Of a stretch of DNA of 64,000 bases, positions 3,398-64,000 are shown piece by piece. This stretch comes from an uncultured Alphaproteobacteria bacterium (GTDB lineage Bacteria; Pseudomonadota; Alphaproteobacteria; HIMB59; GCA-002718135). Location: assembly GCA_902602695.1 (NCBI GenBank), contig CACKRO010000002.1, positions 2,170 through 66,169 on the forward strand. The letters run 5' to 3'. The number at the start of each line of letters is the position of its first letter. Position 1 is the stretch's first letter. Under the pieces are notes generated by a model, which searched no databases, was not told the DNA's origin, and saw only the letters and a program-made list of their open reading frames with translations. Position numbers and translations under genes: made by a program.

Positions 3398-3472
3398 TGG
3401 CGGTCTCGTAGGGACTCGAACCCCAAATCCATGTTCCGAAGACACGTGTGATATCCATTTCACCACGAGACC
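3398..3472 (-). tRNA. tRNA-Arg (anticodon UCG)
   Basis: I folded it by hand into a 75-nt cloverleaf. It has a 7-bp acceptor stem, a GTGA/TCAC D stem, a CGTGT/ACATG anticodon stem and a CTTCGGA loop (anticodon TCG). It also has a TTCGAGT T-loop and an encoded CCA. Confidence 0.85.
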
Positions 3473-5806: not shown

Positions 5807-6478
5807 ATGACATTAAGTAATTTAAATAAATCCATTATTCATTGCAGAAAGTGTGAACGCTTAGTTAACTTTCGTGAAAAAATTGCTAAAGAAAAAAGAA
5901 AACAATATATTGATCAAAGTTATTGGGGCAAGCCCATTACTGGCTATGGAGACGAAAAAGCTAAATTATTAATGGTAGGACTTGCGCCAGCAGCCCATGG
6001 AGGAAATAGAACAGGTCGAGTTTTTACAGGGGATAAATCTGCAGATTTTTTATTTTCCTGTCTATATAAAACTGGATTTGCAAATCAACCAGATTCAGTA
6101 AATAGAGGTGACGGTTTGGAACTTCAAAATATGTACTTAACTACTGCTCTTAAATGTGTACCACCAGAAGATAAGCCTAGTTCACAAGAATTGAAAACAT
6201 GTTTTAATTTTTTCAATCAAGAAATTACTTTCTTAAAAAAAATAAAAGTTATTGTTGCCCTTGGTAAAATTGGTCATGACGCCTGTGTAAATTATTATAA
6301 GCAAAAATATGAAATACGAAATAAAGATTTTATTTTTTCTCATGGATCTATAAATATTTTACCTGATAAGAAAATTTTAGTTGGTAGTTATCATCCAAGT
6401 CCACGAAATGTTAACACAGGAAGAATAGATAAAAGTAAAATGGTAAAACTTTTAAATAGTATTAAAAAATTGCTTTAA
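5807..6478 (+). CDS. uracil-DNA glycosylase, Fe-S family 4/5 type
   Basis: It has CRKCERL Cys ligands. The GLAPAAHGGNRTGRVFTGD motif is family-5-like (GLAPA rather than GEAPG). It also has SYHPSPRN. Confidence 0.75.
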   Translation: MTLSNLNKSIIHCRKCERLVNFREKIAKEKRKQYIDQSYWGKPITGYGDEKAKLLMVGLAPAAHGGNRTGRVFTGDKSADFLFSCLYKTGFANQPDSVNRGDGLELQNMYLTTALKCVPPEDKPSSQELKTCFNFFNQEITFLKKIKVIVALGKIGHDACVNYYKQKYEIRNKDFIFSHGSINILPDKKILVGSYHPSPRNVNTGRIDKSKMVKLLNSIKKLL

Positions 6479-6484
6479 ACCATA

Positions 6485-7675
6485 ATGAAAAATTTTTTTT
6501 TAAATGATCCTAATCTCTTAGTATACGGATTTGCCATGGTCTTCTTTGCAAGTTTTGGACAGACTTTTTACATTGCATTATTTAACGATGATATTCGAAA
6601 TCTATATAAAATAACAGATGGTGAGTTTGGATTAGTTTATGCCATTGCAACGCTTGTAAGTTCATTTTTATTTATTAACTTTGCTAAATTAATAGATAAA
6701 GTTGATTTAAGATTATACTCCATAGGTATTATTCTTGGTTTAGCTTTTGCTTGCATTGGTTTTTATTTTATTTTTGATAATATTTTTCATCTTTTTCTTA
6801 TTTTATTTTTATTACGTTTTTTTGGACAGGGAGCTATGACACATGCCGGCTCAACCTCAATGGCAAGATATTTTTTAATTGATAGAGGTAAAGCAATATC
6901 AGTTGCAACACTTGGAGGAATGTTAGGCATAATGTTTTTACCAAAGATTGTCGTTAATTTGGACTCATATTTTAATTTTAAAACTCTTTGGTTTTTAACA
7001 ACTTTGACTCTTTTGATTTTAATTCCAATAATATACTTTATTCTTCATAATCAAAAAAGCAGGGATATTACTCTTCAAAAAAATATTGATAATGAAAAAA
7101 CACATAAAAGTTGGACCATTACAGAAATTTTAAAAGACCCAGTTTTTTTTATCTATTTACCATTAGCTGCATCCTTTCCATTTATCGGTACTGGGTTAAT
7201 GTTTCATCAGATTTATATTTTTGATTCTAAAGGATGGACAATGGAAATGCTTGGCAATGGTTATATATATTTTGGATTATTTTCTATTTTAGGATTATTA
7301 ATAGGAGGACCCTTAATAGATAAGATAAATACAAAGAAAGCAATACCTTTTGTATTATTACCTTTGTTAGGCTGTATCACCATTCTTTTTTTCTTCAATA
7401 ATTATTGGTCATTCGTGCTTTACATGTCTTTATTTGGATTTAACTTAGGTTTAGCAGCACCTTTTATGGGGTCACTCTGGGCAGAAATTTACGGTGTGAA
7501 AAGTATTGGAACTGCTAAAGCTTTACTGCACGCAGTTGGGGTTTTTGCGAGCGCCTTATCGCCTGTTGTTTTTGGTTATATTATTGATTGGGGTTACGGA
7601 ATATCAGTTATATTTTTAATCAGCTCCATTATGATTATTGTATCATCAATTTTACCTATAATTTATAAAACATGA
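6485..7675 (+). CDS. MFS-type transporter
   Basis: About 12 hydrophobic helices in 396 aa with a central hydrophilic loop. The substrate cannot be inferred. Confidence 0.6.
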   Translation: MKNFFLNDPNLLVYGFAMVFFASFGQTFYIALFNDDIRNLYKITDGEFGLVYAIATLVSSFLFINFAKLIDKVDLRLYSIGIILGLAFACIGFYFIFDNIFHLFLILFLLRFFGQGAMTHAGSTSMARYFLIDRGKAISVATLGGMLGIMFLPKIVVNLDSYFNFKTLWFLTTLTLLILIPIIYFILHNQKSRDITLQKNIDNEKTHKSWTITEILKDPVFFIYLPLAASFPFIGTGLMFHQIYIFDSKGWTMEMLGNGYIYFGLFSILGLLIGGPLIDKINTKKAIPFVLLPLLGCITILFFFNNYWSFVLYMSLFGFNLGLAAPFMGSLWAEIYGVKSIGTAKALLHAVGVFASALSPVVFGYIIDWGYGISVIFLISSIMIIVSSILPIIYKT

Positions 7676-59816: not shown

Positions 59817-61007
59817 ATGTCTGAATATAAAGTATTAAAAAGATCTTTTTATATTGCTTACTCAGTAGGCTCATTAAACATTTTTCTATTAACTATTTAT
59901 ATGGTTCATGTCCCAATTTTACTAGATATACTAAAAATTACAAAAGTAGAATTCTCATTTGGATTAACATTATTTGGTTTATTTAGTATAATATCTAATC
60001 AAGCAACTACACTTTTTTTGACCCCAAAGATTGGAACAAAAAATTGTATTGTCATTTCAAGAACAATTATATCTTTTTTACCTTTCATAGTTTTTTTTTC
60101 AGAAAGTTATTCTGTTTTTTTAATTGTATCATCTATTTGGGGTTTAGCTATGGGTATACAGGTACCAAATGTATTGTTACAAGTTAGTATTATTGAAAAA
60201 GAAACTTCAGAAATTTTAAACCCTATATTTAAATCAGCTTTTTCCATAGGTGTAATATGTGGTTCAATAACTGCCAGTATTGCACTTGGGTATAATTTTA
60301 ATCCCATTAATATATTTATTTTTTTTGGTTTTATTTTTATTCTTTCAGCATTAACTATTTATTTTTTTGGATTACCAAGAAAATATGACATTGTGAGCAA
60401 AGGTTCAAAATTTACTCTTCCAAGTAAAGGTGTTTTTATATTTGGACTCATAAATATGCTTATTTTTGCTTCCATGGGAATAATTGCACAATGGTCATCA
60501 TTGTGGCTGCTTAATGATCTTAACGCAGCTATTTTTATGGCTGGCTCAATAGTACTTTTTTTTAACATTGGAGGAATAATTAGCAATTTTTTAGCATCAA
60601 ATCTTATCAATTTGTTTAATGAAAAAGTTGTAGGCCCTTACTTTTCCATAATAGGATCAATAATTCTGATAGTCAGTATTACAACAATGAACTTATATAT
60701 AATTCTATTAGCTATGATAATTTTTGGATTTTTTACATCAAATCTATTACCTATAGTAATTAGATTAGCTGTTAAAATCTCTAAAGAGCCTATGCCCAAG
60801 ACTATCTCTCATATAACTAGCATAGGTCAAGCAGGAGCTTTATTTGGTCCAGCAATTGTTGGTTTTGCTGCATCAATCTTTGGATTAACTTTTAATATGT
60901 ATGCACTAGGTTTTATTTTTTTAGGTATTTCGTTTTTATTATTAACAGCTATAAAAAATAATACAGTGGTAGGAGTAGAGGGAATCGAACCCACACCACC
61001 GAAGTGA
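59817..61007 (+). CDS. MFS-like 12-TM transporter, paralog 2 (3' end reads into the tRNA-Leu gene)
   Basis: It is collinear with paralog 1, for example PILFELIEMTKTEFS versus PILLDILKITKVEFS. Its last 41 nt overlap the complement of tRNA-Leu. Confidence 0.55.
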   Translation: MSEYKVLKRSFYIAYSVGSLNIFLLTIYMVHVPILLDILKITKVEFSFGLTLFGLFSIISNQATTLFLTPKIGTKNCIVISRTIISFLPFIVFFSESYSVFLIVSSIWGLAMGIQVPNVLLQVSIIEKETSEILNPIFKSAFSIGVICGSITASIALGYNFNPINIFIFFGFIFILSALTIYFFGLPRKYDIVSKGSKFTLPSKGVFIFGLINMLIFASMGIIAQWSSLWLLNDLNAAIFMAGSIVLFFNIGGIISNFLASNLINLFNEKVVGPYFSIIGSIILIVSITTMNLYIILLAMIIFGFFTSNLLPIVIRLAVKISKEPMPKTISHITSIGQAGALFGPAIVGFAASIFGLTFNMYALGFIFLGISFLLLTAIKNNTVVGVEGIEPTPPK

Positions 61008-61051
61008 CCGGATTTTGAATCCGGCGCGTCTACCAGTTCCGCCATACTCCC
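60967..61051 (-). tRNA. tRNA-Leu (anticodon CAA), class II with long variable arm
   Basis: An 85-nt hand fold. It has a GGGAGTA/TACTCCT acceptor stem and a CCGGA/TCCGG anticodon stem with loop TTCAAAA. The variable arm is CAC-UUCG-GUG, the T-loop is GGTTCGATTCC, and CCA is encoded. Confidence 0.9.
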
Positions 61052-61130
61052 ATATTATTTTTCCCTGTAATACTTGGTTTTCAAAGTTAAGTCTACCAAC
61101 ATGATAAGGAAATATTATTCGTAAAGTGTC
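61000..61130. repeat. direct repeat copy 1: tRNA-Leu 5' half plus ~80 nt of its upstream region
   Basis: It aligns with 63397-63539. The match is exact over the tRNA part and, by eye, about three-quarters identical over the upstream part, for example tttttccctgtaatacttggtttt versus tttttccaagtattacttggtttt. Confidence 0.8.
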
Positions 61131-61209
61131 TTAAAATATTTAATTCTTTATAAATTCACAAATCTACTTAAATTTTATAAAATAATTTTAAATTTAATAA
61201 TTTTATTTT

Positions 61210-62601
61210 ATGAACAAATTATTCACTGGAGACAATTTATATATACTTCATGGACTTAATTCAGAAAGTGTAGATTTAATTTATTTAGATCCACCTTTTA
61301 ATTCAAAAAGAAAATTTGACGCCCCTGTTGGGAGTATAGCTGCGGGTGCATCTTTTGAAGATATGTGGAATTGGAGTGATGTAGATTCATTATATTTGGA
61401 AGAAATAATAAACAACTATCCATTTTTAGTTCAATTTATCCAAACTATTGGAAGAATTAATGGAGACTCTATGAAGTCTTACATTACTTATATGACACAA
61501 AGAATAATAGAAATGAAAAGAATATTAAAGAATACAGGATCATTTTATTTGCATTGTGATTCTACTGCTTCTCACTACTTAAAAATAGTTTGTGATAGAA
61601 TCTTTAAAAAAAATAATTTTAGAAATGAAATTATTTGGAAGAGACTAAATGTTTCTGGCAAAGAGTCTCAATATAAAAAAAAGAAATACAGTTCTAACAC
61701 TGATATTATTTTATTTTATACTAAATCAGATGATTATTTTATCAATCCGTATAGAAAACTAAATGAAGATGAAATGAAAATTAAATTTCCATACGGTAAA
61801 TTTCCAAATAGATATAAATTAGGAACAAGACTTTTTAGGTCAACGACAGCTGGGCCAAGACCAAATTTATGTTATGAATGGAGAGGTTTTAAAAACAGGT
61901 CTGAAGCAGGTTGGGCACTAAGTAAGGAGAGACTTGAAGAGGAATATCAAAAAGGAAATATTGTAATTAAAAATGAAAAAAGTTTGGAAAGAAGATCATA
62001 TGAAAAAGACTATAAAGGTGAGCCAATCTCTAACATATGGGATGATTTAAATGAATGGACAAAAAATGAAAGAACTAAATTTCCCACACAAAAGCCTTTA
62101 AGCTTAATGAAAAGAATACTTTTAACAAGTTCTAAAGAGAATGATGTCGTATTAGATCCATTTTGTGGATGTGCCACAACATGTATTGCCGCTCAACAAT
62201 TAAATAGAAAATGGATAGGGATTGATATTAGTGAGGCCTCATCTAAAATTATGATTGATAGATTAAGTGATGATTCTGCATTATTTAAAGATTTTATTAA
62301 TATTAAATCTCCTCCTAAGCGCTCTGATATTAAAGAGGTCCCAGTTTCAAACAGCTTAAGACAAGAAATTTATAATAATCAAAAAGGTCAATGTAATGCT
62401 TGTGATTTACAAACAGATTTAAGGCATTTTGAACTAGATCATATCATACCACGTTCTAAGGGAGGTGGTGATTATTTTGAAAACTATCAGTTATTATGCT
62501 CAAGTTGTAATAGAATAAAAGGTGATAGACCAATGGCTTATCTTCTCCTAAAAATCCAGAAAATAAATAAACTCCATAAATACGAATTAAGTTTTAGTTG
62601 A
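61210..62601 (+). CDS. beta-class N6-adenine/N4-cytosine DNA methyltransferase fused to a C-terminal HNH nuclease domain
   Basis: Motif IV is DLIYLDPPFNS. It is followed by FPTQKPLSLMKRIL and motif I VLDPFCGCATTCIAAQ, which is the beta-class order. The C-terminal HNH is CNAC...FELDHIIPRSKGGGDYFENYQLLCSSCNRIKGD. Confidence 0.8.
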   Translation: MNKLFTGDNLYILHGLNSESVDLIYLDPPFNSKRKFDAPVGSIAAGASFEDMWNWSDVDSLYLEEIINNYPFLVQFIQTIGRINGDSMKSYITYMTQRIIEMKRILKNTGSFYLHCDSTASHYLKIVCDRIFKKNNFRNEIIWKRLNVSGKESQYKKKKYSSNTDIILFYTKSDDYFINPYRKLNEDEMKIKFPYGKFPNRYKLGTRLFRSTTAGPRPNLCYEWRGFKNRSEAGWALSKERLEEEYQKGNIVIKNEKSLERRSYEKDYKGEPISNIWDDLNEWTKNERTKFPTQKPLSLMKRILLTSSKENDVVLDPFCGCATTCIAAQQLNRKWIGIDISEASSKIMIDRLSDDSALFKDFINIKSPPKRSDIKEVPVSNSLRQEIYNNQKGQCNACDLQTDLRHFELDHIIPRSKGGGDYFENYQLLCSSCNRIKGDRPMAYLLLKIQKINKLHKYELSFS

Positions 62602-62715
62602 TTGCGATAAAATTTCTAATTTTTTTTTCGTATGTAGGTCATATTTCTTACTATCTAAAAGTGCAAAGCGTCGTATGAGCGTCGCAATTTTTTTTTAATT
62701 TGAGTAAAAAATTTT

Positions 62716-62799
62716 ATGATCATCATAATTATCCTGCTTCCAAACACGGAGATTATTAAGACTCTAATGAAAAATTATCGTATATGCAGACTGGGTTAG
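62716..62799 (+). CDS. candidate 27-codon Ile/Leu-rich micro-ORF inside repeat module 1
   Basis: It encodes MIIIIILLPNTEIIKTLMKNYRICRLG. All 5 substitutions relative to copy 2 within the shared 20 codons fall at third codon positions. No SD is present, and it conflicts with the promoter reading of the same bases. Confidence 0.25.
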   Translation: MIIIIILLPNTEIIKTLMKNYRICRLG

Positions 62800-62830
62800 T
62801 GGTAAGGCCTATCACTAACCCTTTGCTTTT
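62793..62830 (+). terminator. terminator-like hairpin plus T-tract (module copy 1)
   Basis: A perfect 9-bp stem GGGTTAGTG/CACTAACCC with an 11-nt loop, followed by TTTGCTTTT. Confidence 0.45.
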
Positions 62831-62897
62831 ACCTTTCCTTTAATTTTAAAATATCATTTTAAATTAACAAATTAGATTTTTTTACCTATAAGGGCAC

Positions 62898-63293
62898 ATG
62901 CGTTTGTTAAGCAAATTTTTGATTCTTTTTTTTTCAATACACGTGGCATTTACTGTGGTTGCTTATTTTTATGGCTTTTCATTTACCTTCCCTTTTATCA
63001 TGACAGAAGGCACTTATGTGCCTGAACATCGTTTACAAAGTTTACGTTTATCAACTTTTACCACTTTTGTTTATTTTGGTTTTCGATATTTATTCTTTGG
63101 TTCAGAAAAGTTGCATCCAATACAATTCTTAGGTGTTTCTTTATTTAACTTAGGTGTTCTAGGTGGTCTATGCCTTTATGTTAATGATATTAAAGACTCT
63201 TCAGAATATTTTTTAGTACCTTTTTTTATATTTTCATCAATAATTTTATATAACGCTGCCAATCCGAAAATTAGAAATTATTTTAAAACATAA
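62898..63293 (+). CDS. hypothetical 131-aa polytopic membrane protein (about 4 TM)
   Basis: An ORF with four hydrophobic segments. I recognise no family. Confidence 0.45.
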   Translation: MRLLSKFLILFFSIHVAFTVVAYFYGFSFTFPFIMTEGTYVPEHRLQSLRLSTFTTFVYFGFRYLFFGSEKLHPIQFLGVSLFNLGVLGGLCLYVNDIKDSSEYFLVPFFIFSSIILYNAANPKIRNYFKT

Positions 63294-63396
63294 CATTAGA
63301 TTATTTATACAGTTAAAATATTTTAATCAAAAAACGTATGAGCGTTAAATATTAAAAGATAACTATAATCTTATTGAATTAGTTTAGTTTTTTAAA

Positions 63397-63448
63397 CGAA
63401 GTGACCGGATTTTGAATCCGGCGCGTCTACCAGTTCCGCCATACTTCC
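63397..63448 (-). pseudogene. truncated tRNA-Leu(CAA) 5' fragment (positions 1-52, ending in the variable-arm UUCG loop)
   Basis: It matches 51 of 52 nt of 61000-61051. It lacks the 3' half of the variable arm, the T arm and the 3' acceptor strand. Confidence 0.8.
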
Positions 63449-63519
63449 TTTATATTTTTCCAAGTATTACTTGGTTTTTAAGTTTAAGTCTATGAAGTTG
63501 TTTGGAGGAATTGAATTCG

Positions 63520-63689
63520 AAAAGTTTCGTAAGAGTGTCGCTATTTTTTTGGTTAATTTGAGTAAAAAATTTTATGATAATCATAATTATCCTGCTGCCA
63601 AACACTGAGATTATTAAGACTCTGATAAAAAATTAGCGTATAGGCCGACTGGGTTAGTGGTAAGGCCTATCACTAGCCCTTTTTATTTT
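63520..63689 (+). repeat. repeat module copy 2
   Basis: A homolog of 62657-62830. Its micro-ORF is 63574-63636 (MIIIIILLPNTEIIKTLIKN, 20 codons). Confidence 0.8.
63651..63689 (+). terminator. terminator-like hairpin plus T-tract (module copy 2)
   Basis: The stem is GGGTTAGTG/CACTAGCCC. The single change gives a U-G wobble on the plus-strand RNA only. It is followed by TTTTTATTTT. Confidence 0.45.
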
Positions 63690-63835
63690 AATCAAAAAAA
63701 TCTTCTTTAAAATAAGTAGCACTTACTCAAATTAAAGATCATTTTATTGATAAAATCATTATAATAAAATTATGAAATTAATTTATTTTAAAGTTATTAC
63801 TTATAATATTTATAGACTGTTAATTAAAAATTATT

Positions 63836-64000
63836 ATGAATTCTTTTAATTCTAAAGAATATTTAAATTTTGTAAATATCTCATTAAAAAAAATGGATGA
63901 TGGTTTTTATGAGGAATCATTAATTGATTTAAAGAAAGTAATATCTTCTAATTTTTTTAAAAAATTAAAAACCAATGATCAACTTTTTATTAGAAAAAGA
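63836..64000 (+). CDS. 5' part of an unidentified ORF running off the window
   Basis: The frame is open for 55 codons from ATG 63836 to the window end (MNSFNSKEYLNFVNISLKKMDDGFYEESLIDLKK...). The function cannot be called. Confidence 0.3.
   Translation, partial: MNSFNSKEYLNFVNISLKKMDDGFYEESLIDLKKVISSNFFKKLKTNDQLFIRKR

What the first reader, a model, noticed from the sequence alone, without database searches (positions are those of the whole stretch)
60967..63540. tRNA-Leu(CAA) hot-spot: the 5' half of the tRNA and its upstream region are duplicated 2.35 kb away, bracketing accessory genes with no recombinase
Positions 61000-61048 are identical to 63397-63445 (49/49), and the match is 51/52 through the tRNA 5' end. 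The repeat breaks exactly in the UUCG loop of the variable arm. Homology continues, more diverged, for ~80 nt into the tRNA upstream region. That region includes a TTGAAA/TTAAAA -35-like hexamer and, in the distal copy only, a perfect palindrome CCAAGTAtTACTTGG. Classical tRNA-targeting elements duplicate the 3' part of the tRNA. Here the 5' half plus promoter is duplicated, so whichever copy arrived second had to supply a promoter to keep the tRNA alive. The tRNA repeat is identical while its flanks are diverged. That pattern suggests import of a heterologous allele by recombination rather than simple tandem duplication. The bracketed cargo is a methyltransferase-HNH fusion, a repeat module and an orphan membrane protein. 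All of it is accessory, and no integrase or transposase is present in the window.
Basis: partly seen in the sequence, partly recalled or inferred. Interest (0 to 1): 0.7.

Follow-up and report, generated by a model that had tools for sequence, protein, structure and literature searches.

The report
Integrase-less cassettes at tRNA-Leu site
The duplicated half of the leucine tRNA gene is the scar left when small mobile DNA cassettes inserted one after another into that gene; they are stripped-down relatives of integrase-carrying, satellite-like elements of SAR11 bacteria. This way of gaining genes is known in outline, and this locus shows its anatomy clearly.

Summary
In detail: 61000-61048 equals 63397-63445 (49/49; 51/52 to the tRNA 5' end), with weaker homology continuing upstream.

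Comparison with 85 SAR11 genome loci and 33 metagenome loci shows that tRNA-Leu(CAA) is an integration hot spot.
- About 14 genomes have an empty site.
- 17 carry extra partial or full tRNA copies.
- The content between the tRNA and the conserved right flank varies from 0 to more than 4.6 kb.

Each extra tRNA copy sits in a fixed module: direct-repeat site S_L, about 65 nt, tRNA 5' part, 75-nt upstream region U, direct-repeat site S_R. In related contigs the same module lies beside a P2-like tyrosine integrase. The repeat sequence co-varies with the integrase N-terminal domain, so S looks like an arm-type integrase site. Those elements also encode primase and primase-helicase, which makes them satellite-like.

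The window holds no integrase. It holds three integrase-less cassettes:
- the MTase-HNH gene, which keeps the first codons and 5' leader of a lost integrase;
- module M1 plus a membrane ORF;
- module M2 plus an ORF that runs off the window.

The first two were fused by a deletion between S_L and S_R.

This is a new member of a known kind (tRNA-seeded additive islands). Interest is moderate.

The parts
60967..61051 (-). Complete tRNA-Leu(CAA). In the model its 3' part (60967-60999) is chromosomal. Its 5' part (61000-61051) was supplied by the most recently integrated cassette.
   Evidence: ARAGORN and Rfam tRNA at 56.8 bits. The same gene is next to the conserved left flank in 85 SAR11 loci.
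61000..61051 (.). Core repeat, copy 1: tRNA positions 1-52, comprising the acceptor 5' strand, D arm, anticodon arm and half of the variable arm.
61052..61118 (.). U1, the tRNA-upstream (promoter-side) region brought in by cassette 1. It contains the conserved AGTCTA block at 61090-61095.
   Evidence: U1 is nearly identical in metagenome contig L086, which has a different left flank. It is 85% identical over 40 nt to U2.
61120..61130 (+). S1, an S_R arm site reduced to one half-site (CGTAAAGTGTC). One 11-nt repeat unit is deleted relative to L086.
   Evidence: L086 has ATTCGTAAAGTGTCGTAAAAGTGTCTTAAAA at this position, where the window has ATTCGTAAAGTGTCTTAAAA.
61210..62601 (+). Cargo of cassette 1: a DNA methyltransferase fused to an HNH nuclease (463 aa).
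   Evidence: Pfam N6_N4_Mtase (E 2.7e-46) plus HNH (E 1.1e-11). PADLOC gives type II MTase. A 99% identical protein is on ten metagenome contigs.
62629..62667 (-). Remnant of a lost integrase gene. It comprises the first codons (CGTATGTAGGTCAT, ATG on the minus strand at 62640-62642) and the 5' leader with a decayed palindrome (ATTTCTTACTATCTAAAAGTG).
   Evidence: Integrase-bearing contigs read TATGTACGCCAT ATTTCTCACTTTCTGAAAGTG GAAA GCGTCGTATGAGCGTCG at this position (compared).
62668..62683 (+). S2, GCGTCGTATGAGCGTC. It is a hybrid arm site: S_L of cassette 1 (centre TATGAG) joined to the right flank of the S_R of cassette 2. It marks a deletion of about 200 nt (spacer, partial tRNA, U).
   Evidence: In L086-L091 the same S_L is followed by a 61-nt spacer, CCCACACCAC plus the tRNA 5' half, and U. 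The centre is TAT in 12 of 13 S_L sites and in none of 17 S_R sites.
62688..62830 (+). Module M1, at the start of cassette 2. It has a promoter-like TTGAGT-18-CATAAT, the palindrome TTATGAT-C-ATCATAA, a leader, and a 12-bp hairpin followed by a T run.
   Evidence: 137 nt at 92% identity to M2. Promoter-like and terminator-like hits, fold. Copies also occur in L038 and L053. No Rfam family matches.
62898..63293 (+). Cargo of cassette 2: a 131-aa predicted membrane protein with no family match.
   Evidence: A homologue is in the same cassette in L038, where it lies directly next to the tRNA without the MTase.
63331..63346 (+). S3, the S_L arm site of cassette 2 (AAAACGTATGAGCGTT). Its first half-site is damaged by a 3-nt deletion relative to L038 (GCGTCGTATGAGCGTT).
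63347..63396 (.). AT-rich spacer between S_L and the core, ending in TTTTTTAAA.
   Evidence: The 63294-63396 stretch containing it is 94% identical in L038. The spacer itself is identical over the 50 nt shown. The same layout occurs in L029, L030, L039, L057, L058 and L005.
63397..63448 (-). Partial tRNA-Leu(CAA), core repeat copy 2. It is the displaced 5' half, non-functional, with G3 changed to A.
63449..63523 (.). U2, the upstream region belonging to the older cassette 3. It contains the palindrome at 63460-63474 and the AGTCTA block.
63524..63539 (+). S4, the S_R arm site of cassette 3 (GTTTCGTAAGAGTGTC). It lies 127 nt from the start of the core, the canonical distance.
   Evidence: S_R lies 123-128 nt from the core start in 17 loci.
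63546..63690 (+). Module M2, at the start of cassette 3.
   Evidence: Its last ~65 nt are about 97% identical to sequence downstream of the integrase in L011.
63836..64000 (+). Start of the cargo ORF of cassette 3, which runs off the window.
   Evidence: Its N-terminus matches a 344-aa ORF in L077. There the ORF is a cassette lying between two full tRNA-Leu copies. No Pfam family matches.

Best explanation
The partial tRNA copy is an attachment-site scar.

Mechanism:
- A family of SAR11 integrative elements carries an attP made of a pair of 7-nt direct repeats (S_L), about 65 nt of spacer, the 5' part of tRNA-Leu(CAA), 75 nt of tRNA-upstream sequence (U), and a second pair of direct repeats (S_R).
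- Their P2-like tyrosine integrase recombines this attP with the chromosomal tRNA gene, most likely in the anticodon stem-loop.
- The incoming element ends up upstream of the tRNA and donates a new 5' half and upstream region, which keeps the single-copy tRNA gene intact.
- The old 5' half is pushed away to the far end of the element.
- Repeated integration builds a tandem array, with the newest element next to the tRNA.
- Deletions then remove the integrase and replication genes and leave single-gene cassettes that keep the att arms.

The window contains such an array:
- cassette 1, the MTase-HNH gene, which still holds the first codons and 5' leader of the lost integrase;
- cassette 2, M1 plus a membrane ORF;
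- the displaced partial tRNA;
- cassette 3, U2, S4, M2 and an ORF that continues past position 64000.

Cassettes 1 and 2 were fused by a deletion between the direct repeats S_L and S_R, which removed the partial tRNA that once separated them.

Shown: the architecture, the empty and occupied alleles, the link to integrase-bearing elements, and the deletion.

Inferred: catalysis by that integrase, S as its arm-type binding site, the crossover position, and whether the integrase-less cassettes can still move.
For: 1. Variable site. In 85 SAR11 genome loci sharing the tRNA, the left flank and the right flank (flavin-reductase-like gene, SufE-like gene and the genes after them) are conserved. The distance from the tRNA to the right flank ranges from 7-112 nt (about 14 loci) to 4.6 kb.

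2. Clean insertions. L030 (1.06 kb) and L058 (2.07 kb) have this order: full tRNA, U, S_R, one gene, S_L, spacer, partial 5' tRNA, then the same 'native' upstream sequence and right-flank gene as the empty sites.

3. Extra copies. 17 of the 85 loci hold additional tRNA copies. In 13 of them every extra copy is a 5' part lying to the right of the full gene.

4. Motif S. GYGTCGTAWRAGYGTC with up to 3 mismatches gives 47 hits in 656 kb, all on the plus strand. S_R lies 123-128 nt from the core start. S_L lies 54-88 nt to the left of extra copies. S is absent from empty sites. In the window the stricter pattern occurs 3 times, all in this locus, against 0.01 expected.

5. Integrase link. A 332-aa Pfam Phage_integrase protein (E 2.6e-24; best PDB match is phage P2 Int, 5c6k) lies next to the tRNA copy in 4 genome loci and 19 of 27 metagenome loci. 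In the 11 loci with the S-type repeat the order is: start codon, palindrome CACTTTCTGAAAGTG, direct repeats, about 72 nt from S start to core start, tRNA 5' part.

6. Co-variation. The repeat sequence changes with the integrase N-terminal 30 residues: GCGTYG with KVSFQVQIRRKGFRT, GTGCAAC with GWLYTTFVRRAGHKA, GGTCAAC with MGWRYTAQVKRKGFKT, GGGCAAC, GGGCGAC and others. [quoted passage not shown]

7. Autonomous relatives. The integrase-bearing elements also encode a CHC2 zinc-finger primase fragment and a primase-helicase (DUF5906/VapE; PHROG DNA primase), and they occur in tandem.

8. Decay series. It runs from full integrase, through a truncated integrase (L119, 206 aa), short 5' remnants (L082, L057, L026 and the window at 62629-62642), to arm repeats only.

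9. Direct test of the fusion. Ten metagenome contigs carry the 99%-identical MTase-HNH protein. The six read (L086-L091) match the window's cassette at about 96.5% nt identity. In all six, S_L is followed by a spacer and the partial tRNA, and in the four that extend far enough by U, exactly where the window jumps into M1.

10. Modularity. The MTase cassette has at least 3 different right neighbours and 2 left-flank types. Other cassettes (clusters c27, c37, c24 and the window's third ORF) occupy different array positions in different genomes.
Against: - No integrase is present in the 64-kb window, so nothing here shows that recombination happens in this genome.
- All three arm sites flanking the first two cassettes are damaged or hybrid (S1, S2, S3). 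The array may therefore be an immobile fossil.
- Many occupied loci have several genes but no internal tRNA copy or S site (for example L043 and L052). Other processes (homologous recombination, deletion) clearly also shape the island.
- Some empty sites have a U-like rather than 'native' upstream region (L035, L044, L047, L081). U is therefore not exclusively element-derived.
- S as an integrase-binding site rests on co-variation and on analogy with P2/186. No binding data exist.
- The loci are fixed 8-kb chunks, so many arrays are cut off.
Confidence: 0.8

Rival explanations
1. Homologous recombination only. The fully conserved tRNA and the conserved right-flank genes serve as anchors for RecA-mediated replacement of whatever lies between them. 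The partial tRNA copies are passive portable homology. No site-specific recombinase was ever involved at this locus, or none is needed for cassette movement today.
For: - SAR11 islands are reported to lack canonical mobile elements (PMC11796062).
- The window has no integrase.
- Many occupied loci lack internal tRNA copies or S sites.
- The 52-62 nt identical tRNA segment, together with U, is long enough for RecA-dependent Campbell-type insertion of a circle.
- The S_L x S_R deletion in the window is itself a short-homology event.
Against: - The junction module is homologous to the integrase-proximal attP arm of integrase-bearing elements, down to the integrase start codon.
- All S sites have one orientation and fixed distances.
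- The repeat sequence co-varies with the integrase N-terminus.
- In clean insertions the incoming DNA carries its own upstream region while the displaced copy keeps the native one.

These features explain the origin of the structure better than homologous recombination alone. They do not exclude homologous recombination as the way integrase-less cassettes move now.
Confidence: 0.12
2. The locus is the scar of a temperate pelagiphage (HTVC019P type) that integrated into the tRNA and was later deleted. The cargo would be leftover phage or transduced DNA.
For: These podoviruses integrate into SAR11 tRNA genes, often at the 5' end, and supply the 5' part. Targets include tRNA-Leu(TAG) and tRNA-Leu(TAA).
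Against: - tRNA-Leu(CAA) is not among the reported targets.
- No IMG/VR contig contains the 42-nt tRNA segment.
- The integrase family at this site has only one distant hit (23% identity) in IMG/VR.
- In the phage collection it reaches at most 39% identity, to Ralstonia and Pseudomonas phages, not pelagiphages.
- The associated genes are primase and primase-helicase, with no RNA polymerase, capsid or tail genes.
- The cargo genes are ordinary flexible genes.
Confidence: 0.05
3. The duplication is an assembly artefact or a simple local tandem duplication.
For: Repeats of this kind break short-read assemblies. The metagenome contigs with the MTase all end at the tRNA repeat.
Against: - The same junctions occur in independent single-cell genomes and in metagenomes from different projects.
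- The two copies have different flanks (U1 against U2 at 85% over 40 nt). This is not expected after a recent local duplication in which the 49-nt core stays identical.
- Related genomes show the insertion with a different upstream region at each end.
Confidence: 0.03

Closest known systems
P2/186/HP1-type heterobivalent tyrosine integrases and their attP (core flanked by arms, each with two or more direct repeats bound by the N-terminal domain)
   Same: - The best solved-structure match of the site's integrase is phage P2 Int (5c6k, E 2.5e-9), and the size is similar (332 aa).
- The integrase gene lies directly beside attP.
- A pair of direct repeats lies on each side of the core.
- The repeat type tracks the N-terminal residues, as described for P2- versus 186-type arms.
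- The 186/HP1 types also target tRNA genes, HP1 a tRNA-Leu.
   Different: - Here the element restores the 5' part of the tRNA and its upstream region, not the 3' part.
- The host is SAR11.
- The elements are not phages of the P2 type: there are no structural genes.
- Sequence identity to any phage integrase is at most 39%.
- Binding of S by the integrase has not been tested.
Tycheposons and the tRNA-seeded island model in Prochlorococcus (Hackl et al., bioRxiv 10.1101/2020.12.28.424599)
   Same: [quoted passage not shown]
- Tandem elements are separated only by a partial tRNA copy.
- Degenerate remnants and stray partial tRNAs accumulate.
- Most island DNA is not an intact element.
- The host is a streamlined oligotroph without classical mobile elements.
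   Different: - The host, the tRNA (Leu-CAA is not among the seven Prochlorococcus sites) and the integrase lineage differ, and no phylogeny was made.
- Membership in the tycheposon family was not tested.
- The single-gene cassettes that keep both att arms are described here, not there.
VEIMEs, marine virion-encapsidated integrative mobile elements / phage satellites (Eppley et al. 2022, PMC9618062)
   Same: - They are common in Pelagibacter.
- They encode a tyrosine integrase, a primase/helicase and AlpA-like regulators, with no capsid genes.
- About 20% lack an integrase and were proposed to borrow one.
- The 6-7 kb integrase-bearing relatives found here have this gene set.
   Different: - Encapsidation and concatemers cannot be assessed from these data.
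- The paper's main text does not mention tRNA or attP.
CIMEs (cis-mobilizable elements) of Streptococcus thermophilus ICESt1/ICESt3. This comparison is from my own knowledge, not from a tool.
   Same: - They are bounded by attL and attR.
- They are devoid of recombination genes.
- They derive from an integrative element by deletion.
- They can sit in tandem with, and be mobilised by, a related element's integrase.
   Different: - Mobilisation in trans is unproven here.
- The cassettes are much smaller (1-2.4 kb, one gene).
- The att site is the 5' half of a tRNA.
HTVC019P-type pelagiphage integration (Zhao et al., bioRxiv 10.1101/410191)
   Same: Same host clade. The att core lies at the 5' end or middle of a tRNA gene, and the element supplies the 5' part, so a 5' fragment is duplicated.
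   Different: - The tRNAs differ (Cys-GCA, Leu-TAG, Leu-TAA, Arg).
- Those are phage genomes in which attP lies between the integrase and the RNA polymerase gene.
- No match to this tRNA segment or this integrase family was found in the viral collections.
SAR11 small genomic islands with internal partial tRNA repeats (Molina-Pardines et al. 2025, PMC11796062)
   Same: That paper states that 7 of 61 islands of a SAR11 genomospecies are linked to a tRNA. [quoted passage not shown] Almost no integrases were found.
   Different: The statement is a single sentence. No att anatomy, no indication of which half of the tRNA is repeated, no integrase family and no mechanism are given in the main text.

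Membership tests
Tyrosine-integrase (Campbell-type) integration at a tRNA gene | The insert is bounded by a direct repeat of part of the tRNA gene | tested here: met
   61000-61051 against 63397-63448, 51/52.
Tyrosine-integrase (Campbell-type) integration at a tRNA gene | The integrase gene lies inside the element, next to the att site | tested here: not met
   None is present in the window. The feature is met in relatives: 4 genome loci and 19 metagenome loci have a Phage_integrase gene about 110 nt (80-118) from the tRNA copy.
Tyrosine-integrase (Campbell-type) integration at a tRNA gene | Relatives have an empty attB allele, and the insertion maps exactly to the repeat | tested here: met
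   About 14 loci have the tRNA directly next to the right flank. L030 and L058 have the native upstream region displaced together with the partial copy. The closest relative, L003, is empty.
Tyrosine-integrase (Campbell-type) integration at a tRNA gene | Arm-type integrase sites flank the core in attP | tested here: inconclusive
   Direct repeats lie at fixed distances on both sides, all in one orientation. They co-vary with the integrase N-terminus. No binding data exist.
Tyrosine-integrase (Campbell-type) integration at a tRNA gene | Excision gives a circular form and restores attB | not testable with these tools
   No reads are available. Junctions between tandem cassettes look the same as attP, so contigs cannot discriminate.
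CIME-like (att-flanked, integrase-less derivative) | Flanked by att sites and lacking recombination genes | tested here: met
CIME-like (att-flanked, integrase-less derivative) | Derived from an integrase-bearing element by deletion | tested here: met
   The window at 62629-62667 keeps the integrase start codon, the first codons and the leader. A decay series is visible in other loci.
CIME-like (att-flanked, integrase-less derivative) | Mobilised in trans by a related integrase | not testable with these tools
   There is only indirect support. The same cassette occurs in at least 3 contexts at about 96.5% identity, while the core flanks of those lineages are 82-87% identical.
Tycheposon | The integrase belongs to the tycheposon tyrosine-recombinase clade (or is a large serine recombinase), and the element targets one of the seven Prochlorococcus tRNA/tmRNA sites | not tested
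   No reference sequences are available here. The host and the tRNA differ.
VEIME / phage satellite | Packaged as concatemers in virions | not testable with these tools
   Only the gene content of relatives (integrase, primase, primase-helicase, HTH proteins, no capsid genes) fits.
HTVC019P-type prophage remnant | Phage genes (RNA polymerase, capsid and others), or a phage attP that matches this tRNA | tested here: not met
Integron | IntI integrase with attI and Pc, and cassettes ending in folded attC sites | tested here: not met
   No IntI is present. The cassette boundaries are tRNA fragments with direct-repeat arms, not attC hairpins.

The most novel reading that the evidence does not exclude
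SAR11 may run a tRNA-anchored cassette system that works like an integron without being one. Single-gene cassettes would keep a complete attP (both direct-repeat arms, the tRNA 5' half and the tRNA-upstream region). They would be excised and inserted in trans by integrases of transient satellite-like elements. The specificity groups would be defined by matching arm repeats and integrase N-domains. This would give a genome with almost no resident mobile elements a dedicated route for gaining and shuffling single genes.

Three observations point this way but do not prove it:
- The arm repeats are retained in nearly all integrase-less junctions despite variable deletion end points.
- Integrase-less junctions outnumber integrase-bearing ones by about 17 to 4 among species representatives.
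- One cassette occurs in several array contexts at high identity.
Probability: 0.3. Interest if true: 0.7.

Novelty: new member of a known kind. Interest (0 to 1): 0.45.

Why it matters
SAR11 is the most abundant bacterial clade in the ocean. It has a very large flexible gene pool but almost no recognisable mobile elements, so how it gains genes is an open question.

This locus gives a concrete, sequence-level answer for one hot spot:
- a defined attachment module on tRNA-Leu(CAA);
- a matching family of P2-like integrases on small satellite-like elements;
- a visible decay path from those elements to the single-gene cassettes that make up the island.

It also supplies testable parts: the integrase groups and their predicted arm repeats. 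Because arm repeats and integrase N-termini co-vary, the specificity code could be read and tested directly.

The general model is already published for Prochlorococcus and is hinted at for SAR11. The value of this locus therefore lies in its mechanistic detail rather than in a new principle.

Tried and rejected
- **Extending the window.** I looked up contigs encoding exactly the window's membrane protein or MTase-HNH. Neither is on record, so the sequence beyond 64000 remains unknown.
- **Phage attP.** I scanned IMG/VR for the exact 42-nt tRNA 5' segment and found nothing. blastn of the tRNA plus upstream region against phage genomes returned only generic tRNA-Leu genes of T5-like phages.
- **M as a known RNA.** Rfam gave no match at E up to 1.
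- **M as a small protein gene.** The short ORF MIIIIILLPNTEIIKTL... looked conserved between M1 and M2. The L038 copy carries non-conservative changes, and the 'synonymous' site is the centre of a palindrome. Rejected.
- **M as the remnant of an integrase 3' end.** Local alignment shows that only the terminal ~65-nt hairpin region is shared with sequence downstream of integrase genes, not the coding end. Rejected.
- **S1 as a hybrid recombination site.** L086 shows that S1 is simply S_R with one 11-nt unit deleted. Rejected.
- **MTase-HNH as a homing insertion into S.** The metagenome contigs show an ordinary cassette with its own partial tRNA. Rejected.
- **MTase cassette contigs as excised circles.** The two ends carry different upstream regions, so they come from arrays.
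- **L059 as a classical 3'-type duplication.** It is a decayed full tRNA copy belonging to elements whose attP carries the whole tRNA.
- **Promoter scan.** The number of sites equals the shuffled expectation, so no promoter is claimed from it.

Full report
**1. Observation**

The window has one complete tRNA-Leu(CAA) at 60967-61051 on the minus strand. A second copy of its 5' 52 nt lies at 63397-63448. The first 49 nt are identical, and there is one mismatch near the tRNA 5' end. Weaker similarity continues for about 85 nt into the region upstream of the tRNA. A 49-nt exact repeat is not chance.

**2. The duplicated unit is larger**

Aligning the two intergenic regions shows that the distal copy runs straight on: upstream region U2, then a 16-nt motif (S4, 63524-63539), then a 140-nt module (M2, 63546-63690). 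The proximal copy has U1 and a half motif (S1). The MTase-HNH gene (61210-62601) follows, and only after it come a full motif (S2, 62668-62683) and M1 (62688-62830, 92% identical to M2).

The strict motif CGTAWGAGYGT occurs three times in the 64 kb, all in this locus, against 0.01 expected. The motif consists of two 7-nt half-sites in direct orientation with an 11-nt period.

**3. Relatives**

An exact 42-nt segment of the tRNA 5' half retrieved 85 chunks of SAR11 genomes. ORF clustering shows two conserved flanks:
- Left flank: it ends with zero to two MFS paralogues and then the tRNA.
- Right flank: a flavin-reductase-like gene, a SufE-like gene and further genes.

Between the tRNA and the right flank the distance is 7-112 nt in about 14 genomes and up to 4.6 kb in others, with many different genes.

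The window's closest relatives by left flank (about 89% identity) differ from it: L003 is empty and L004 carries another cassette.

**4. Extra tRNA copies and their context**

Seventeen of the 85 chunks hold extra tRNA copies. In 13 of them every extra copy is a 5' part to the right of the full gene, at spacings of 0.7-4.3 kb.

L030 and L058 are clean single insertions. Their order is: full tRNA, U-type upstream region, S, one gene, S, AT-rich spacer, partial tRNA, and then the same upstream sequence and right-flank gene as in empty sites. This is the footprint of an insertion into the tRNA gene in which the incoming DNA supplies the 5' half and the upstream region, and the old 5' half is displaced.

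The shortest 5' copies begin exactly at the anticodon stem (L030, L057). One locus with a duplicated 3' part (L067) breaks inside the anticodon loop. I therefore infer that crossover occurs in the anticodon stem-loop.

**5. The motif S is positional and oriented**

With up to three mismatches, GYGTCGTAWRAGYGTC gives 47 hits in 656 kb, all on the plus strand.
- About eight of the weakest hits (three mismatches) fall at one conserved coding position in a right-flank gene, and two inside integrase genes. I treat these as chance.
- Of the rest, one set (S_R, centre TAAGAG or TAAAAG) lies 123-128 nt from the start of the core in occupied loci and is absent from empty sites.
- The other set (S_L, centre TATGAG) lies 54-88 nt to the left of extra tRNA copies.

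The recurring unit is therefore S_L, spacer, tRNA 5' part, U, S_R.

**6. An integrase family uses this unit**

In four genome chunks a 332-aa ORF lies next to the tRNA copy. It is a Pfam Phage_integrase (E 2.6e-24). Its best match among solved structures is the phage P2 integrase (5c6k).

A metagenome scan with an alignment of these proteins gave 27 loci. In 19 of them the tRNA 5' part lies about 110 nt from the integrase start. In the 11 loci with the S-type repeat the order is: start codon, palindrome CACTTTCTGAAAGTG, a pair of direct repeats, about 72 nt from S start to core start, tRNA part.

The repeat sequence differs between integrase subgroups and tracks the N-terminal 30 residues:

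| Arm repeat | Integrase N-terminal residues |
|---|---|
| GCGTYG | KVSFQVQIRRKGFRT |
| GTGCAAC | GWLYTTFVRRAGHKA |
| GGTCAAC | MGWRYTAQVKRKGFKT |

Further pairs exist, including GGGCAAC and GGGCGAC. [quoted passage not shown] I therefore read S_L and S_R as arm-type integrase sites. This is an inference from co-variation and analogy, not from binding data.

**7. What the integrase-bearing elements are**

They are 6-7 kb. Besides the integrase they encode two HTH-like proteins, a CHC2 zinc-finger primase fragment, a primase-helicase (DUF5906/VapE; PHROG DNA primase) and two unknown proteins. They have no structural phage genes. They occur in tandem, separated only by the partial tRNA (L101, L110).

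This gene set matches the descriptions of Pelagibacter VEIMEs / phage satellites and of PICI-like tycheposons. I could not test membership in either family.

They are not known pelagiphages:
- No viral contig has the tRNA segment.
- IMG/VR gave only one hit to the integrase, at 23% identity.
- The best phage integrases are 35-39% identical and come from Ralstonia and Pseudomonas phages.

**8. The window's cassettes are integrase-less derivatives**

Right after the MTase-HNH stop codon the window reads CGTATGTAGGTCAT ATTTCTTACTATCTAAAAGTG CAAA GCGTCGTATGAGCGTCG (62629-62684). Integrase-bearing contigs read TATGTACGCCAT ATTTCTCACTTTCTGAAAGTG GAAA GCGTCGTATGAGCGTCG at the start of their integrase gene. 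The cassette thus keeps the first codons, the leader and the arm site of a lost integrase. Other loci show intermediate stages: an integrase cut to 206 aa in L119, and short 5' remnants in L082, L057 and L026.

**9. The 2.35-kb interval is two cassettes**

A protein 99% identical to the MTase-HNH is on ten short metagenome contigs. The six I read (L086-L091) match the window at about 96.5% nucleotide identity from the tRNA to just past S2. Beyond that point they carry a 61-nt spacer and CCCACACCAC plus the tRNA 5' half. The four contigs that extend far enough then show an upstream region, whereas the window continues with M1.

S2 has the S_L-type centre. TAT occurs in 12 of 13 S_L sites and in none of 17 S_R sites. 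Its right flank, however, is that of an S_R, as seen in the distal copy and in L038. The window has therefore lost about 200 nt (spacer, partial tRNA, U) through a deletion between the direct repeats S_L and S_R.

L038 has cassette 2 (M, the membrane ORF, S_L, spacer, partial tRNA) directly next to the tRNA, without the MTase. S1 in the window is an S_R missing one 11-nt unit. S3 has a 3-nt deletion relative to L038. With three damaged or hybrid arm sites, the first two cassettes of this genome are probably no longer mobile.

**10. Evidence that cassettes moved as units**

The MTase cassette has at least three different right neighbours and occurs next to the commonest left-flank type as well as the window's rarer one. 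Its nucleotide identity of about 96.5% exceeds the 82-87% identity of the core left flank between those lineages. Other cassettes occupy different positions in different arrays. The window's third ORF (63836 onwards) is, in L077, a cassette lying between two full tRNA copies.

**11. Comparison with what is known**

- Integration that restores the 5' part of a SAR11 tRNA is documented for HTVC019P-type pelagiphages.
- tRNA-seeded islands with tandem elements, partial tRNA scars and degenerate remnants are described for Prochlorococcus.
- For SAR11, one sentence in Molina-Pardines et al. reports partial tRNA repeats inside four small islands, in the near absence of integrases.
- I did not find a description of the anatomy worked out here: the 5'-half att module, the arm repeats, the matching integrase groups, the decay to single-gene cassettes, and the S_L x S_R fusion. 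The most recent large SAR11 genome survey mentions only tRNA-Phe/His and tRNA-Arg at the main hypervariable region.

I class the finding as a new member of a known kind.

**12. Limits**

- The genome loci are fixed 8-kb chunks, so many arrays are cut off.
- No reads are available, so excision products and population frequencies cannot be assessed.
- The window ends inside cassette 3.
- The role of module M is unknown.
- Many occupied loci have no internal att modules, so homologous recombination and deletion also shape the island.

Noticed in passing
window 62688-62830 and 63546-63690; also L038 961-1100 and L053 1873-1944 (window orientation): Module M is a conserved ~140-nt unit placed right after S_R in some cassettes. 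It has a promoter-like TTGAGT-18-CATAAT, a perfect palindrome TTATGAT-N-ATCATAA in which only the centre base varies, a ~60-nt leader, and a 12-bp hairpin with a T run. The one hairpin substitution between copies keeps pairing only on the plus strand. There is no Rfam match. It could be a ~95-nt small RNA or a regulated cassette promoter. Its last ~65 nt are about 97% identical to sequence downstream of the integrase in L011, with shorter matches in L106 and L113.
   Followed up: partly
window 59817-61007 (+) against the tRNA at 60967-61051 (-): The second MFS ORF reads 41 nt into the antisense strand of the tRNA gene; its last 13 codons, VVGVEGIEPTPPK, are tRNA antisense. The same 396-aa length occurs in L003 and L004. 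The MFS paralogue varies from 0 to 2 copies to the left of the tRNA. In L023, L027 and L082 it occurs as a cassette to the right of it.
   Followed up: partly
L067 2040-2089 and L059 3427-3560 (window orientation): Other kinds of duplication occur at the same tRNA. L067 has a copy of the 3' part that ends inside the anticodon loop, to the left of a cargo gene, with no recognisable arms. L059 has a decayed full copy with GGCAAC-type arm repeats. Elements of the L011/L098 group carry the whole tRNA in their attP.
   Followed up: partly
L092-L097 (gene at 6001-7395; 211-1605 in L096): A 67%-identical MTase-HNH fusion in the HIMB114 lineage is a lone insertion between core genes (a hydrolase gene and a LON-substrate-binding-domain gene), with no tRNA gene among the called genes. 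The fusion family is very widespread across phyla (8000 hits below E 1e-20). The gene seems to move by more than one route.
   Followed up: no
L100, L101, L106, L107, L111, about 100-150 nt to the right of the tRNA copy (window orientation): The integrase-distal arms of the autonomous elements carry extra direct repeats containing GAATC (TGAATCA in L106, with 11-nt spacing), in addition to the S_R-like pair. They may be sites for an excisionase or another element protein.
   Followed up: no
window 63404-63422 (-): On the tRNA strand, the anticodon stem-loop of the partial copy followed by CACTTCGTTT scores as terminator-like. A transcript started from U2 might therefore end shortly after the truncated tRNA.
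   Followed up: no
window 3398-3472 (-): A second tRNA gene, tRNA-Arg(TCG), lies near the other end of the window. I did not examine it for partial copies or variable neighbours.
   Followed up: no
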